Below are positions 23,325-39,473 of a stretch of DNA of 64,000 bases, piece after piece; positions within the stretch are counted from its first letter, which is position 1, and each line of letters begins with the position of its first letter. Made by a program: the position numbers and the translations under genes. The DNA is from an uncultured Acidobacteriota bacterium (GTDB lineage Bacteria; Acidobacteriota; Terriglobia; Terriglobales; Acidobacteriaceae). Below the pieces are notes generated by a model. That model was not told where the DNA came from. It was given only the letters and a program-made list of their open reading frames with translations, and searched no databases. Location: contig CAVXXV010000004.1 of the NCBI GenBank assembly GCA_963765755.1, positions 259,036 to 323,035 on the forward strand, given 5' to 3'.

Positions 23325-23662
23325 GCGGCAAATTTCTCCTAAATGGTTGATTTTCATTATAGGGAGGGAGCGAAAGTACGTCCATTGAGGCCGGACAGGA
23401 GTACCTAGGTCGTGTATCAATGGGACTTCGAAATGTACTGTCGAATTATGAGAAAAAAAGTGTACAATTTTCATCGACTGTAGTTCTTGCCGCATCTAAC
23501 CGTCTGAATCGAATGGGGAAGGGGTAGCCGTGCGAGCGGCACTGTGGTTGCTCGAATTAGCTGAGTGAAGCAGGCAACTTGGTAGAGCGAGCGATCATCA
23601 GGTAAAGAAGCAGCGGTCTACCCAGCCAGTGCGAGACAAACAGAAGTTACCGTTTCTCAGTT

Positions 23663-24904
23663 ATGGCACCAGAAAATCAGCTTTCCGATCATCGCGAGCC
23701 AGAGTTAGATTTACTCCTGCCTAAAGGCACGCTCGATGTGCCGCTATGGAAATCACTGTTCGCGAGCATTGATGCTGCGCTGTTCCCCAAAAAACTTCCG
23801 CCTCTGGTACTGACCTCGAGGCCCGAGGCGCAAGGCGAGCTTTGGGGCGAGCGTCTCACGCGACCATGGTGGCAGTCGGTGTTCAGCAACCTGCGGGACG
23901 TGGTGTTCCCGCCGAAGTTGCCGCCGCTGCAGCTGACTTCAACCCCGGTCGAAGGCGAGAATGCGCTGGACGACGATCTCGCGCTCCCGTGGTACCGGTC
24001 GCTGTTCTCGAACCTGAAAGACGCATTCTTCCCGGAGAAACTGCCGCCGCTTGTGTTGACCTCCAAGCCCGCTGCGGTACGTGATATCTGGGGGTTCTAC
24101 AATTACAAGAAAAATGGCGCGCTGGCCTCCACCGGCGTGCACGTTGTGCTGATCGCATTGCTGATTGGCGGAACGATGTATGCAAACCGGGCTGTGACCG
24201 TGGTGAAAAAACAAGGTCCGGTCATGCCGCTGCTGTCGGACGCAGACATTCCGCCCCTGCCGCCTTCCAAGACTCAAGTCGGTGGCGGCGGCGGTGGTGG
24301 CGATCGCGACAAACTGGCCGCCACGAAGGGCAGACTGCCCAAGTTGGCGATGGAGCAGATCACGCCGCCCATGGTGGTGGTGCGCAACGAGAATCCCAAA
24401 CTGCCAGTTGAGCCTACCGTCGTCGTTCCTCCACAGATCAAGCTCGCGATGAACAACATGCCGAATCTCGGCGATCCTATGGCTGCGATTCCGAACGGTC
24501 CGCTTTCGAATGGCACGGGATCGGGCGGAGGCATCGGCTCTGGTTCCGGAGGCGGCGTGGGCTCGGGTGAAGGGCCGGGCGTCGGTCCGGGGCGTGGTGG
24601 TGGCATCGGCGGCGGCGTTTTCCACGTGGGTGGAGGCGTTTCTGCTCCCAAGCCCGTGTTCTCCCCGGATCCTGAGTATTCGGAAGAAGCGCGCAAGGCG
24701 AAGTATCAGGGAACGGTTGTTCTCGGGCTCGTCGTAGGACCTGATGGCCGTCCGCGGGACATGAAGGTTCTGCGCAGCCTGGGACTTGGTCTGGATGAAA
24801 AAGCTATCGAGGCTGTGAAGAACTGGCGCTTCGATCCGGCCGTGAAAGATAACAAGCCGGTGGCCGTGTATATCAGCGTGGAAGTGGATTTCCGGTTGTA
24901 CTAA
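23663..24904 (+). CDS. TonB-family energy transducer with an extended repeat-containing cytoplasmic N-terminus
   Basis: One TM segment (VHVVLIALLIGGTMYA), a Pro/Gly-rich spacer, and a C-terminal TonB domain (EEARKAKYQGTVVLGLVVGPDGRP...AIEAVKNWRFDPA). Confidence 0.8.
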   Translation: MAPENQLSDHREPELDLLLPKGTLDVPLWKSLFASIDAALFPKKLPPLVLTSRPEAQGELWGERLTRPWWQSVFSNLRDVVFPPKLPPLQLTSTPVEGENALDDDLALPWYRSLFSNLKDAFFPEKLPPLVLTSKPAAVRDIWGFYNYKKNGALASTGVHVVLIALLIGGTMYANRAVTVVKKQGPVMPLLSDADIPPLPPSKTQVGGGGGGGDRDKLAATKGRLPKLAMEQITPPMVVVRNENPKLPVEPTVVVPPQIKLAMNNMPNLGDPMAAIPNGPLSNGTGSGGGIGSGSGGGVGSGEGPGVGPGRGGGIGGGVFHVGGGVSAPKPVFSPDPEYSEEARKAKYQGTVVLGLVVGPDGRPRDMKVLRSLGLGLDEKAIEAVKNWRFDPAVKDNKPVAVYISVEVDFRLY

Positions 24905-37928: not shown

Positions 37929-38099
37929 TTATACGGCACGCGACAGGGATGGCTCGGTGAGACGGTCGTCAGCGCGGCGGTTTTGTGGAAGTGGGATATT
38001 AGGGTGGCGAGGCGCGAAGATAAGCGCGAGCATCGCGCCCACGCCAACTCCCGCAAGCAAAAACGTCACCGCGGTGCGGGGATCGTATCGCGTTTGCAT
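37929..38099 (-). CDS. Small YtxH-like membrane protein
   Basis: The ATG at 38099 is preceded by GGAG. The TM segment FLLAGVGVGAMLALIFAP resembles the YtxH N-terminus. Confidence 0.4.
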   Translation of the reverse strand: MQTRYDPRTAVTFLLAGVGVGAMLALIFAPRHPNIPLPQNRRADDRLTEPSLSRAV

Positions 38100-38178: not shown

Positions 38179-38550
38179 TTAGGAGATCCCCTGGATGCTG
38201 TCCACGTGGATCACGTTGGTGGACGAATCCAGAGTTCCGGTCACCTTCACCTGCTTGCCTTCGTACTCCTTCACCTTGCTGTCGTCGTCAACCTTGTAGC
38301 TGACGTTCGCCGAAGAATCCTTCAGCATCATCGCGCCCTTTTCCTTCACGATCGTTCCCGTGAATTCTTTGGAGCTCTGGGCCGAAGTGGGTGCGGACTG
38401 CGCTGCGCCCGGCGCGGGTTGCGACTGGCTCGGCTGTGTTGCCTGCGGGTCGCTCTGACCCGGCTTCGCGTCTTGCGCATACAGCGAACCCATGGTGGCC
38501 ACGCCCAAGGTAAGGGCTAATACTGATCCGCGGATAAAGTAGTTCTTCAT
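38179..38550 (-). CDS. Small secreted protein (DUF5818-like)
   Basis: The ATG at 38550 is preceded by GGAGGAG. Signal peptide, Gln/Pro-rich linker, then FTGTIVKEKGAMMLKD...GKQVKVTGTLDSSTNVIHVDSI. Confidence 0.6.
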   Translation of the reverse strand: MKNYFIRGSVLALTLGVATMGSLYAQDAKPGQSDPQATQPSQSQPAPGAAQSAPTSAQSSKEFTGTIVKEKGAMMLKDSSANVSYKVDDDSKVKEYEGKQVKVTGTLDSSTNVIHVDSIQGIS

Positions 38551-38596
38551 GAAACTCCTCCTGGAAGAAAATGTCGCTGCTGTTGCAGGACTAAAG

Positions 38597-38612
38597 TGCA
38601 AACGGCGTGCCA
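38597..38612 (-). promoter_or_regulatory. Sigma-54 (-24/-12) promoter candidate for the 38550 gene
   Basis: The minus strand reads TGGCACGCCGTTTGCA, a full match to TGGCACG-N4-TTGCW. Its -12 end is about 47 nt upstream of the ATG. Confidence 0.55.
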
Positions 38613-38819
38613 AAGCGTCCCGAGCCGTTGCACATTGAGAAAGTGCTTTGCTTCTCGCGTTCTGCTGTGGTGGTCATGAAATTTAAACTTCATCGCGTGC
38701 AAAACTTTCTTGGCAGAATTTTCCACAGCAGCGACAATCTGTCCTACAGGCAGCGCAAAAACTACATAAAAACAGAACCATTGCGAACTTCTACCGTGAA
38801 TCAAGGAGCGCAATGCTTT

Positions 38820-38835
38820 TGGCACTCGTGATGCA
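38820..38835 (+). promoter_or_regulatory. Sigma-54 (-24/-12) promoter candidate for the 38907 gene
   Basis: TGGCACTCGTGATGCA has GG and GC at the correct spacing and one mismatch in the -12 element. It ends about 70 nt upstream of the GTG start. Confidence 0.5.
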
Positions 38836-38906
38836 ATGGAACATGGGTAAGCCATTTTTGCGCATTGGATGCTTGCTCGCATGTCTAGTGTGCCAGGAGG
38901 CCACGA

Positions 38907-39473
38907 GTGGATTCCCAGCCAAGCAGGTCGGCGGCCTACGGAATTTTTCCGCTGGACGCTCGTCTTGATCAGATTGTGAGTTCGCTCAACGCGGCCGGTT
39001 TTGAAACGAGTACCATCTGTGTCTTCCTTCCGCCTACGCACCCGGTTGCTGATGAGGTCCGCAGCGTGAAATCGTCTTCGGGTGAATTGTCCCAAGAACA
39101 CGAATACGATCGCGTGGTGGCATGGCTTGCGACCTTAGGCGGAGTGGTGATTCCGGACGTCGGCTTCTTCGTAGGGGCGAGTGGGTATCTGCATGCAGTG
39201 GCCTGCGGCATATGCCGGCCCGGCGACAAAAGCACCGGAGCATTGGCCAACCTCGGAATCCCGTCAGACGCGGCAATGCGCTACGAAGCCCGGACCCGGG
39301 AGGACGCCAGTCTGGTATTTGTCCGTTGCGATGGATCGGCGCAGTCGGAGTGGGCGCGAGAGATTCTACGTTTGCTGCGTGCGGAAGAAGTGTGCGTACT
39401 GGGAGAGCAGGCGGAGATGGAGTGTGATCCGCCGTCTGCCGATTCAAATCTGATTATGTTCCGGCCGACGTAG
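38907..39473 (+). CDS. Hypothetical protein, possibly general-stress YflT/DUF1269-like
   Basis: GTG start 6 nt after AGGAGG. N-terminal YGIFP...LNAAGF and a later LGIPSDAAMRYEARTREDASLVFV resemble YflT-type repeats. Confidence 0.45.
   Translation: MDSQPSRSAAYGIFPLDARLDQIVSSLNAAGFETSTICVFLPPTHPVADEVRSVKSSSGELSQEHEYDRVVAWLATLGGVVIPDVGFFVGASGYLHAVACGICRPGDKSTGALANLGIPSDAAMRYEARTREDASLVFVRCDGSAQSEWAREILRLLRAEEVCVLGEQAEMECDPPSADSNLIMFRPT

What the first reader, a model, noticed from the sequence alone, without database searches (positions are those of the whole stretch)
38597..38835. Two divergent sigma-54-type promoters flanking an AT-rich region and driving small stress-like proteins
- **Minus strand:** 38612-38597 reads TGGCACGCCGTTTGCA, a perfect TGGCACG-N4-TTGCA. 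It is suitably placed before the secreted DUF5818-like gene (ATG at 38550).
- **Plus strand:** 38820-38835 reads TGGCACTCGTGATGCA, before the YflT-like gene (GTG at 38907, RBS AGGAGG).
- **Between them:** about 200 bp of AT-rich DNA includes the near-palindrome ATGAAATTTAAACTTCAT (38676-38693), a plausible enhancer-binding-protein site.
- **Missing partner:** no enhancer-binding protein gene is in the window, so the activator and its signal are unknown.
- **Significance:** two strong -24/-12 matches facing outward within 240 bp are unlikely to arise by chance.
Basis: seen in the sequence. Interest (0 to 1): 0.6.

Follow-up and report, generated by a model that had tools for sequence, protein, structure and literature searches.

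The report
Conserved back-to-back sigma-54 promoter pair
Two outward-facing promoters of the sigma-54 type sit between a secreted small OB-fold protein gene and a stress-protein-like gene in an uncultured soil acidobacterium; both are conserved in related genomes, so they are very likely real, but they are a new example of a well-known kind of switch.

Summary
Both motifs are at the stated coordinates. The genome has rpoN with an intact RpoN box and about 19 enhancer-binding proteins (bEBPs), none in the window or within 10 kb of this locus in 13 relatives.

The genome holds only three perfect TGGCACG-N4-TTGCW sites. All three lie just upstream of small genes.

The divergent gene pair and both -24/-12 elements are kept in 11 congeneric genomes and three metagenome contigs. 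These include lineages whose synonymous sites are saturated. TGGC and TGCA are fixed while the spacer varies, which is the sigma-54 signature.

Family-wide, 34 of 41 DUF5818 genes from Acidobacteriota MAGs carry such a motif ending 41-72 nt before the start codon.

A better activator-site candidate is the dyad TGCAAAA-N14-TTTTCCA (38698-38725). It is unique in the genome and lies about 100-110 bp from each -24 element.

The "YflT-like" label holds only through paralogues.

Earlier notes of this scan report sigma-54 control of DUF5818-like proteins in other phyla.

Verdict: a real feature and a new member of a known kind.

The parts
38597..38612 (-). -24/-12 element of the DUF5818 promoter: TGGCACGCCGTTTGCA. 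The inferred start site is near 38586, giving a 5'UTR of about 36 nt.
   Evidence: 18.3 bits, the top score in the genome. It is conserved at the same place in 11 congeners and 3 metagenome contigs.
38820..38835 (+). -24/-12 element of the 188-aa gene promoter: TGGCACTCGTGATGCA. The inferred start site is near 38846, giving a 5'UTR of about 61 nt.
   Evidence: 14.2 bits. TTTGGC-N8-TGCAA is conserved in 10 of 11 congeners, and displaced by 11 nt in G015. It is also present in L140, L141 and L142.
38179..38550 (-). Gene for a 123-aa secreted protein: signal peptide, Q/S/P-rich linker and a DUF5818 OB-fold domain.
   Evidence: Pfam PF19135, E = 1e-8. The AlphaFold2 model has pLDDT above 90 for residues 61-121 with a b1-b2-b3-helix-b4-b5 order. 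All Foldseek matches are OB folds, including CcmE, YgiW and NlpE-C.
38907..39473 (+). Gene for a 188-aa protein that is a divergent relative of YflT/ActD-like proteins. It appears monocistronic and converges on the end of the cox operon.
   Evidence: No Pfam hit itself. About 31% identical to the paralogue at C21:9181-9687 (E = 1e-16), which hits PF11181 and PF11821. Public databases name its homologues 'hypothetical protein'.
38698..38725 (.). Candidate activator (bEBP) site: the dyad TGCAAAA-N14-TTTTCCA. Its centre is 99 bp from the -24 element on the DUF5818 side and 109 bp from the one on the other side.
   Evidence: The arms are conserved in 7 of 12 genomes, with near variants in G017 and G008 (9 genomes), while the middle of the spacer varies. 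It is the only such dyad in the 5.2-Mb genome. Spacing to the Y side is 105-109 bp; to the D side it is 98-100 or 108-112 bp.
38676..38693 (.). Only the core TGAAATTT (38677-38684) is conserved.
   Evidence: Four distant genomes read TGAAATTTCA, a perfect 10-mer palindrome. The outer arms are not kept.
38628..38650 (.). Conserved block TTGCACATTGAGAAAGTGCTTTG, at -42 to -64 of the inferred DUF5818 start site. Its role is unknown.
   Evidence: Unique in the genome.
38719..38739 (.). Conserved block TTTTCCACAGCAGCGACAATC, which overlaps the right arm of the dyad. It also contains the -10-like hexamer GACAAT of the only sigma-70-like match.
38788..38802 (.). Conserved block CTTCTACCGTGAATC, at -58 to -44 of the inferred start site of the 188-aa gene. 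Its role is unknown.
37929..38099 (-). 56-aa small membrane-protein ORF downstream of the DUF5818 gene, possibly transcribed with it.
   Evidence: One search lists it as a 71-aa ORF with an internal ATG. A 56-61-aa gene is called at the same place in metagenome contigs. No Pfam hit.

Best explanation
The 356-bp spacer between the two genes holds two divergent sigma-54 (RpoN) dependent promoters.

**The two promoters.** RNA polymerase with sigma-54 would bind each -24/-12 element as a closed complex. Transcription would start near 38586 (minus strand) and near 38846 (plus strand). Initiation would need an AAA+ enhancer-binding protein encoded elsewhere in the genome. That protein would bind the conserved central DNA, contact the polymerase by DNA looping and open the complex by ATP hydrolysis.

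**The activator site.** The best candidate is the dyad TGCAAAA-N14-TTTTCCA at 38698-38725, perhaps together with the TGAAATTT core.

**The products.** One promoter drives a secreted single-domain OB-fold protein (DUF5818), possibly with a 56-aa membrane protein. The other drives a YflT/ActD-like protein. The likeliest role is a co-regulated envelope or general stress response.

**Shown:** the motifs, their conservation and geometry, the presence of rpoN and bEBPs, and the family-wide link between DUF5818 genes and -24/-12 motifs.

**Inferred:** the start sites, rpoN dependence, one shared activator, its site, and the inducing signal.
For: **The machinery is present**
- rpoN is present: PF04552, E = 2e-60. 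Its product carries the RpoN box RRTVAKYR.
- There are 19 full-length PF00158 activators.

**Background in this genome**
- Only 3 perfect consensus sites exist in 5.2 Mb, and all lie 5' of genes.
- Sites of 14 bits or more fall in the upstream, same-orientation class about twice as often as background (31% against 17%).

**Conservation**
- Both elements are conserved in position in the syntenic locus of 11 congeners.
- UvrA four-fold sites are only 34-42% identical in G005, G008, G015, G016 and G004, so this is selection and not recent common descent.
- The per-column profile shows islands at TTTGGCA and TGCA, with a variable spacer and variable flanks.
- The same holds on metagenome contigs where the 188-aa protein is 41-58% identical.

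**Family-wide link**
- 34 of 41 DUF5818 loci from many contexts have a motif of at least 11.7 bits ending 41-72 nt before the start codon. In control 305-nt windows the rate is 2.4%.

**Central dyad**
- It is unique in the genome and phase-conserved. The only spacing change on the DUF5818 side is +10 to +12 bp.
Against:
- The plus-strand site is only moderate (14.2 bits, about rank 63 genome-wide) and has A or G where the consensus has T at -14.
- Paralogues of the 188-aa gene elsewhere have no such motif. The pairs in G013 and G003 lack it on that side.
- No bEBP is linked to the locus.
- No other promoter in the genome shares the central blocks.
- The palindrome that precedes other DUF5818 promoters is absent here.
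- My position weight matrix was written from memory of the published consensus, so its bit scores are approximate.
Confidence: 0.72

Rival explanations
1. Only the DUF5818-side promoter depends on sigma-54. The plus-strand TTTGGC-N8-TGCAA is conserved for another reason, such as a non-productive sigma-54 binding site or the site of another regulator. The 188-aa gene would then be read from a sigma-70-type promoter, for example TTGGCA-17-GACAAT at 38710-38738.
For: - The plus-strand site is weaker, at 14.2 bits.
- Sigma-54 motifs are not a family trait of the YflT-like paralogues and are missing on that side in G013 and G003.
- There is one sigma-70-like match in the spacer, and its -10-like CAAT is conserved.
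Against: - What is conserved is exactly GG-N10-GC with its T..C and T..A flanks, while the intervening bases vary. That pattern fits sigma-54 contacts better than a generic operator.
- The -35 hexamer of the sigma-70-like match is not conserved (TTGGCA, GCGACA, GCAACA, GCGATT). One such match is also what shuffled sequence gives (0.7 expected).
Confidence: 0.17
2. The conserved central blocks are not an activator site. They would instead serve a repressor or nucleoid protein, or encode a small product: the 53-codon ORF beginning with ATG at 38676, or a small RNA. In that case each promoter would be activated from other sequences or by different activators.
For: - The blocks match no known bEBP site.
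- They are not shared with any other promoter in the genome.
- An ORF does start at the conserved ATGAAATTT (inside the 74-aa ORF at 38607-38831).
Against: - Substitutions in the block fall on all three codon positions, G018 has AAG in place of the ATG, and one- and two-base indels break the frame. Coding is therefore unlikely.
- There is no Rfam match.
- The position (about 100-110 bp from each -24 element) and the phase-preserving spacing are what an upstream activator site would show.
Confidence: 0.25
3. Both motifs are chance matches with no promoter function.
For: - The count of near-consensus sites in the window is not significant on its own.
- The genome-wide number of perfect sites (3-4) is what base composition predicts.
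Against: - Both are conserved in position across lineages with saturated synonymous divergence.
- All perfect sites lie 5' of genes.
- The same motif recurs at a fixed distance before 34 of 41 DUF5818 genes.
Confidence: 0.02

Closest known systems
zraP / zraSR divergent sigma-54 promoters of E. coli and Salmonella (ZraR-dependent; PMC4987338)
   Same: Two back-to-back sigma-54 promoters share one control region. One of them drives a small exported envelope-stress protein (ZraP there, the secreted DUF5818 OB-fold protein here).
   Different: In zra the activator and its kinase are encoded by one of the two operons. Here no bEBP lies within 10 kb in 13 loci, and only 1 of 41 family loci has one within 8 kb. 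ZraP is a helical chaperone, not an OB fold. The signal here is unknown.
Canonical sigma-54 promoters (consensus TGGCACG-N4-TTGCW; for example glnAp2, pspA, Pu), from my own knowledge of the literature
   Same: GG and GC lie exactly 10 nt apart, the minus-strand site matches the consensus perfectly, and conserved sequence sits about 100 bp upstream.
   Different: The organism is an uncultured Terriglobales acidobacterium in which no sigma-54 promoter has been mapped. The plus-strand site has ATGCA instead of TTGCA. Both sites share an extended TTTGGC.
YgiW / BOF family of periplasmic OB-fold stress-induced proteins (PDB 1nnx)
   Same: A signal peptide is followed by a single OB-fold domain. 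YgiW is the only PDB sequence hit (E = 0.61, not significant) and is among the Foldseek matches.
   Different: There is no significant sequence similarity, and the Pfam family is DUF5818. YgiW is not known to me as a sigma-54 target.
Sigma-54-controlled DUF5818-like OB-fold proteins noted earlier in this scan in other phyla (e1-3147183, e1-3876738)
   Same: Small DUF5818-type OB-fold proteins, some of them exported, sit behind sigma-54 promoters.
   Different: Those notes describe a neighbouring activator and a regulon that includes chaperone genes. Here the activator is unlinked, I found no shared upstream site with other genes, and the phylum is different (Acidobacteriota).

Membership tests
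sigma-54 (RpoN) dependent promoter | GG (-24) and GC (-12) dinucleotides exactly 10 nt apart within TGGCAC-N5-TTGCW | tested here: met
   Minus-strand site: 0 mismatches. Plus-strand site: 1 mismatch to TGGCAC-N5-TTGCW.
sigma-54 (RpoN) dependent promoter | The genome encodes RpoN with region I and the RpoN box | tested here: met
   PF04552, E = 2e-60. A 594-aa open frame contains RRTVAKYR.
sigma-54 (RpoN) dependent promoter | The genome encodes AAA+ enhancer-binding proteins (PF00158) | tested here: met
   19 full-length matches with E below 1e-64.
sigma-54 (RpoN) dependent promoter | Correct orientation and a plausible distance 5' of a gene | tested here: met
   The motif ends 46 nt before ATG 38550 and 71 nt before GTG 38907.
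sigma-54 (RpoN) dependent promoter | The -24 and -12 cores are conserved in orthologous loci while the spacer varies | tested here: met
   judged against the neutral baseline.
sigma-54 (RpoN) dependent promoter | Transcription start about 11-13 nt downstream of the GC element | not testable with these tools
sigma-54 (RpoN) dependent promoter | Expression depends on rpoN and on a cognate bEBP bound at an upstream site | tested here: inconclusive
   A conserved, genome-unique dyad lies 98-112 bp from the -24 elements. No bEBP could be assigned.
zraP/zraSR-type self-contained divergent sigma-54 module | The activator is encoded in one of the two divergent units | tested here: not met
   tblastn with a bEBP AAA+ domain gave no hit within +-10 kb in 13 loci.
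Pfam DUF5818 (PF19135) | Match above the gathering score | tested here: met
   35 bits against a cut-off of 27, residues 64-120.
Pfam DUF5818 (PF19135) | OB-fold beta-barrel | tested here: met
   AlphaFold2 pLDDT above 90 over residues 61-121 with five strands and one helix. The top 50 Foldseek matches are OB folds (best E = 1.8e-3).
YflT domain family (PF11181) | Pfam match above the gathering score on the 188-aa protein | tested here: not met
   No family even at E = 10. Only the paralogues, about 31% identical, reach 26-30 bits.

The most novel reading that the evidence does not exclude
DUF5818 secreted OB-fold proteins are the signature output of a sigma-54-dependent envelope-stress response in Acidobacteriota, and possibly across several phyla as earlier scan notes suggest. 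This response would be comparable in role to Psp or ZraP but undescribed. At this locus it would be wired as a bidirectional promoter pair, fired from one central dyad by an unlinked activator, which also brings in a YflT-like protein.
Probability: 0.3. Interest if true: 0.55.

Novelty: new member of a known kind. Interest (0 to 1): 0.38.

Why it matters
- Almost nothing is known about sigma-54 regulons in Acidobacteriota, a dominant and mostly uncultured soil phylum whose genomes encode about 20 activators each.
- This locus gives two well-supported sigma-54 promoters there.
- The family-wide link gives a first regulatory handle on DUF5818, a domain for which my full-text search found no paper.
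- It also offers a defined DNA bait (38613-38819) for finding the cognate activator.
- The mechanism itself is textbook, so the gain is annotation and a lead, not a new principle.

Tried and rejected
- **Linked activator:** tblastn with a bEBP AAA+ domain found none within +-10 kb in 13 loci and one within 8 kb in 41 family loci. That is the chance level.
- **Shared upstream site:** the conserved central blocks occur nowhere else in the genome. Local alignment against the upstream regions of other good sigma-54 candidates stayed within the null distribution (best 24; null maximum 25).
- **Palindrome TACRG-N6-CYGTA:** it sits at -125 to -136 before many other DUF5818 promoters but is absent from this locus and its orthologues. 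Its 20 exact copies in the genome match chance, and only the one at C11:124836 pairs with a good sigma-54 site.
- **Small ORF or small RNA in the spacer:** rejected. Substitutions are not biased to third codon positions, G018 lacks the start codon, indels break the frame, and there is no Rfam hit.
- **IHF-like sites in the blocks at -40 to -70:** by eye there is no convincing match to WATCAANNNNTTR. This was not pursued.
- **Direct family assignment of the 188-aa protein:** Pfam, NCBIfam and PDB sequence searches found nothing.
- **Literature:** no paper for DUF5818. Nothing useful on sigma-54 in Acidobacteria.

Full report
**Observation**

- The minus strand at 38612-38597 reads TGGCACGCCGTTTGCA. 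This is a perfect TGGCACG-N4-TTGCA.
- The plus strand at 38820-38835 reads TGGCACTCGTGATGCA.
- ATGAAATTTAAACTTCAT is at 38676-38693.

The flanking genes are also as described.
- A 123-aa protein starts at ATG 38550 behind GGAGGAG. It has a signal peptide and a DUF5818 domain (PF19135, 35 bits against a cut-off of 27).
- A 188-aa protein starts at GTG 38907 behind AGGAGG.
- The spacer is 48.6% G+C and its centre 45.9%, against 58.7% for the window.

**Is the machinery there?**

The window is C4:259036-323035 of a 5.2-Mb, 23-contig genome that is 93% complete.
- The genome encodes RpoN (PF04552, E = 2e-60) with the RpoN box RRTVAKYR.
- It has 19 full-length sigma-54 activator AAA+ domains.
- None is in the window; the nearest are more than 100 kb away on the same contig.

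Related loci all come from uncultured Acidobacteriota or Terriglobales MAGs.

**Chance**

Inside the window the count of near-consensus sites is not significant: 5 against 2.5 expected.

Genome-wide the picture is different.
- There are only three perfect TGGCACG-N4-TTGCW sites, about what base composition predicts.
- All three lie directly 5' of a small gene on the same strand. One precedes a small secreted TonB-C-like protein.

I scanned the genome with an approximate position weight matrix, written from memory of the published consensus.
- The minus-strand site ties for the top score in the genome, at 18.3 bits.
- The plus-strand site scores 14.2 bits, about rank 63.
- Sites of 14 bits or more are in the upstream, same-orientation class 31% of the time, against 17% for weak sites.
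- From the matrix alone the plus-strand site would therefore be about an even bet.
- A second site of that strength within a few hundred bp, on the opposite strand and facing away, is expected at roughly 0.003.

**Conservation**

The block uvrA, small ORF, DUF5818 gene, divergent 188-aa gene and cox operon is syntenic in 11 other genomes of the genus and on metagenome contigs.

Four-fold degenerate sites of uvrA give the neutral baseline.
- Two genomes are close: 81-83% identical.
- One is intermediate: 62%.
- G005, G008, G015, G016 and G004 are at 34-42%, which is essentially saturated.

In the alignment of the 12 spacers both elements sit at the same place.
- DUF5818 side: TGGCACGCTGCTTGCA, TGGCATGCGGCTTGCA, TGGCACGGTGCGTGCA, TGGCACGGTGTTTGCA, TGGAATCGTGCGTGCA and others.
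- Other side: TGGCAATCACGATGCA, TGGCCATCATGATGCA, TGGCACTCCCGGTGCA, TGGCCGGTCACATGCA and others. G015 has GGGCACCATGGCTGCA displaced by 11 nt.
- The per-column profile across nine non-close genomes shows two islands, TTTGGCA and TGCA, with a poorly conserved spacer and flanks. That is the contact pattern of sigma-54.
- Three metagenome contigs, where the 188-aa protein is only 41-58% identical, keep both elements.

**A family-wide link**

I checked 41 loci encoding DUF5818 relatives. They come from Acidobacteriota MAGs and one Binatia MAG, and lie in many genomic contexts.
- 34 have a -24/-12 motif of at least 11.7 bits ending 41-72 nt before the predicted start codon, mostly 46-52 nt.
- The rate in random 305-nt windows of the same loci is 2.4%.
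- The paralogue of this genome at C11:125028 has TGGCACGTCCCGTGCA in the same position.

So the DUF5818-side promoter is an instance of a general rule for this family in the phylum. Two earlier notes of this scan (e1-3147183, e1-3876738) report sigma-54 control of DUF5818-like OB-fold proteins in other phyla. I treat them as a lead that agrees with my independent count here, not as evidence.

**The products**

- *DUF5818 protein.* An AlphaFold2 model from 12 orthologues is confident (pLDDT above 90) for residues 61-121, with a b1-b2-b3-helix-b4-b5 order. All top Foldseek matches are OB folds, including the periplasmic CcmE, YgiW and NlpE C-terminal domains. Sequence search of the PDB gives only YgiW, at a non-significant E = 0.61.
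- *188-aa protein.* It has no hit in Pfam, NCBIfam or the PDB, and public databases call its homologues "hypothetical protein". It is about 31% identical over nearly its full length to paralogues in this genome. Those paralogues reach PF11181 (YflT) and PF11821 (ActD). "YflT-like" therefore holds only indirectly.

**The control region**

Between the two -24 elements, which are 208 bp apart, several blocks are conserved against a diverged background.

| Window coordinates | Conserved sequence |
|---|---|
| 38628-38650 | TTGCACATTGAGAAAGTGCTTTG |
| 38677-38684 | TGAAATTT |
| 38697-38709 | GTGCAAAACTTTC |
| 38719-38739 | TTTTCCACAGCAGCGACAATC |
| 38753-38760 | GCGCAAAA |
| 38788-38802 | CTTCTACCGTGAATC |

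Its right arm CTTCAT becomes CTGCGT in relatives. Its core is conserved, and four distant genomes read the perfect 10-mer TGAAATTTCA.

The most widely conserved inverted repeat is TGCAAAA-N14-TTTTCCA at 38698-38725.
- Its arms are kept in 7 of 12 genomes, with near variants in two more, while the middle of the spacer varies.
- It is the only such dyad in the genome.
- Its centre lies 105-109 bp from the -24 element of the 188-aa gene in the nine genomes that have it.
- On the DUF5818 side the distance is either 98-100 or 108-112 bp.
- The single length change on that side is thus about one helical turn. This is one event, so it is only suggestive of a phasing constraint.

The position, the symmetry between the two promoters and the uniqueness make this dyad my best candidate for the activator site. 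I give that about even odds.

**What I could not find**

- No bEBP is encoded within 10 kb in 13 loci, and only 1 of 41 family loci has one within 8 kb.
- The central blocks occur nowhere else in the genome and share nothing above chance with the upstream regions of other sigma-54 candidates.
- Many other DUF5818 promoters carry a palindrome TACRG-N6-CYGTA at -125 to -136 from the TGG. This includes the C11 paralogue of this genome and the DUF5818/YflT-like pairs of G013 and G003. This locus and its orthologues do not have it. It probably answers to a different or diverged activator.
- A small ORF or RNA in the spacer is unlikely.
- The only sigma-70-like match (38710-38738) is what shuffled sequence gives, and its -35 hexamer is not conserved.
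Start sites and rpoN dependence are therefore inferred, not shown.

**Comparison with known systems**

The architecture works like known divergent sigma-54 pairs. The closest is zraP/zraSR, where ZraR drives divergent sigma-54 promoters and one product is a small periplasmic envelope-stress protein (PMC4987338). It is not a member of that self-contained type, because the activator is not encoded in either unit. No paper in the searched library mentions DUF5818.

**Verdict**

- It is corrected for the proposed activator site and softened for the "YflT-like" and "stress" labels.
- This is a new member of a known kind. The modest extra interest comes from the family-wide sigma-54 link of an unstudied secreted OB-fold family in a poorly studied phylum.

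Noticed in passing
L099-L139 (41 loci from genome contigs); also G000 C11:124961-124976: DUF5818-family genes across Acidobacteriota MAGs almost always (34 of 41) have a -24/-12 motif ending 41-72 nt before the start codon, whatever the genomic context. A bEBP lies within 8 kb in only one of them.
   Followed up: yes
G000 C11:124836-124851 (outside the window); L113, L115, L125, L127, L129, L135, L138 and others; G013 and G003 spacers (L039, L040): A palindrome TACRG-N6-CYGTA sits at a fixed -125 to -136 from the TGG of many DUF5818 promoters. It is probably the site of a dedicated activator. It is absent from the locus studied here.
   Followed up: partly
window 37929-38099 (-): A conserved 56-aa ORF lies between the DUF5818 gene and uvrA. 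Its segment FLLAGVGVGAMLALIFAP looks YtxH-like by eye, but it has no Pfam hit. A gene of 56-61 aa is called at the same place in metagenome contigs. It may be transcribed with the DUF5818 gene.
   Followed up: partly
window 38541-38567: The inverted repeat TTCTTC-N15-GAAGAA brackets the ribosome-binding site and ATG of the DUF5818 gene and is kept in 6 genomes. It could form a weak hairpin holding the RBS in its loop, but the arms are partly constrained by the first codons.
   Followed up: no
window 38855-38900 compared with G018, G010, G006, G002, G005 and G012 (alignment): In relatives the 5'UTR of the 188-aa gene carries an inverted repeat GCGCA...GTGCGC(A/C)A. This genome has lost the second arm through a deletion of about 11 nt.
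   Followed up: no
window 23537-23552 (+): CGGCACTGTGGTTGCT (13.2 bits) lies 111 nt upstream of a gene on the same strand (about 23663-24904). It may be another sigma-54 candidate in the window.
   Followed up: no
G000 C5:252978-252993 (-), outside the window: TGGCACGTTAAATGCA (15.6 bits) overlaps the start of an LptB-like ABC ATPase gene about 2 kb upstream of rpoN.
   Followed up: no
G013 (L039) and G003 (L040): The DUF5818 gene and the YflT-like gene also occur as a divergent pair outside the uvrA/cox context. This suggests the two genes are functionally linked and not merely neighbours.
   Followed up: partly
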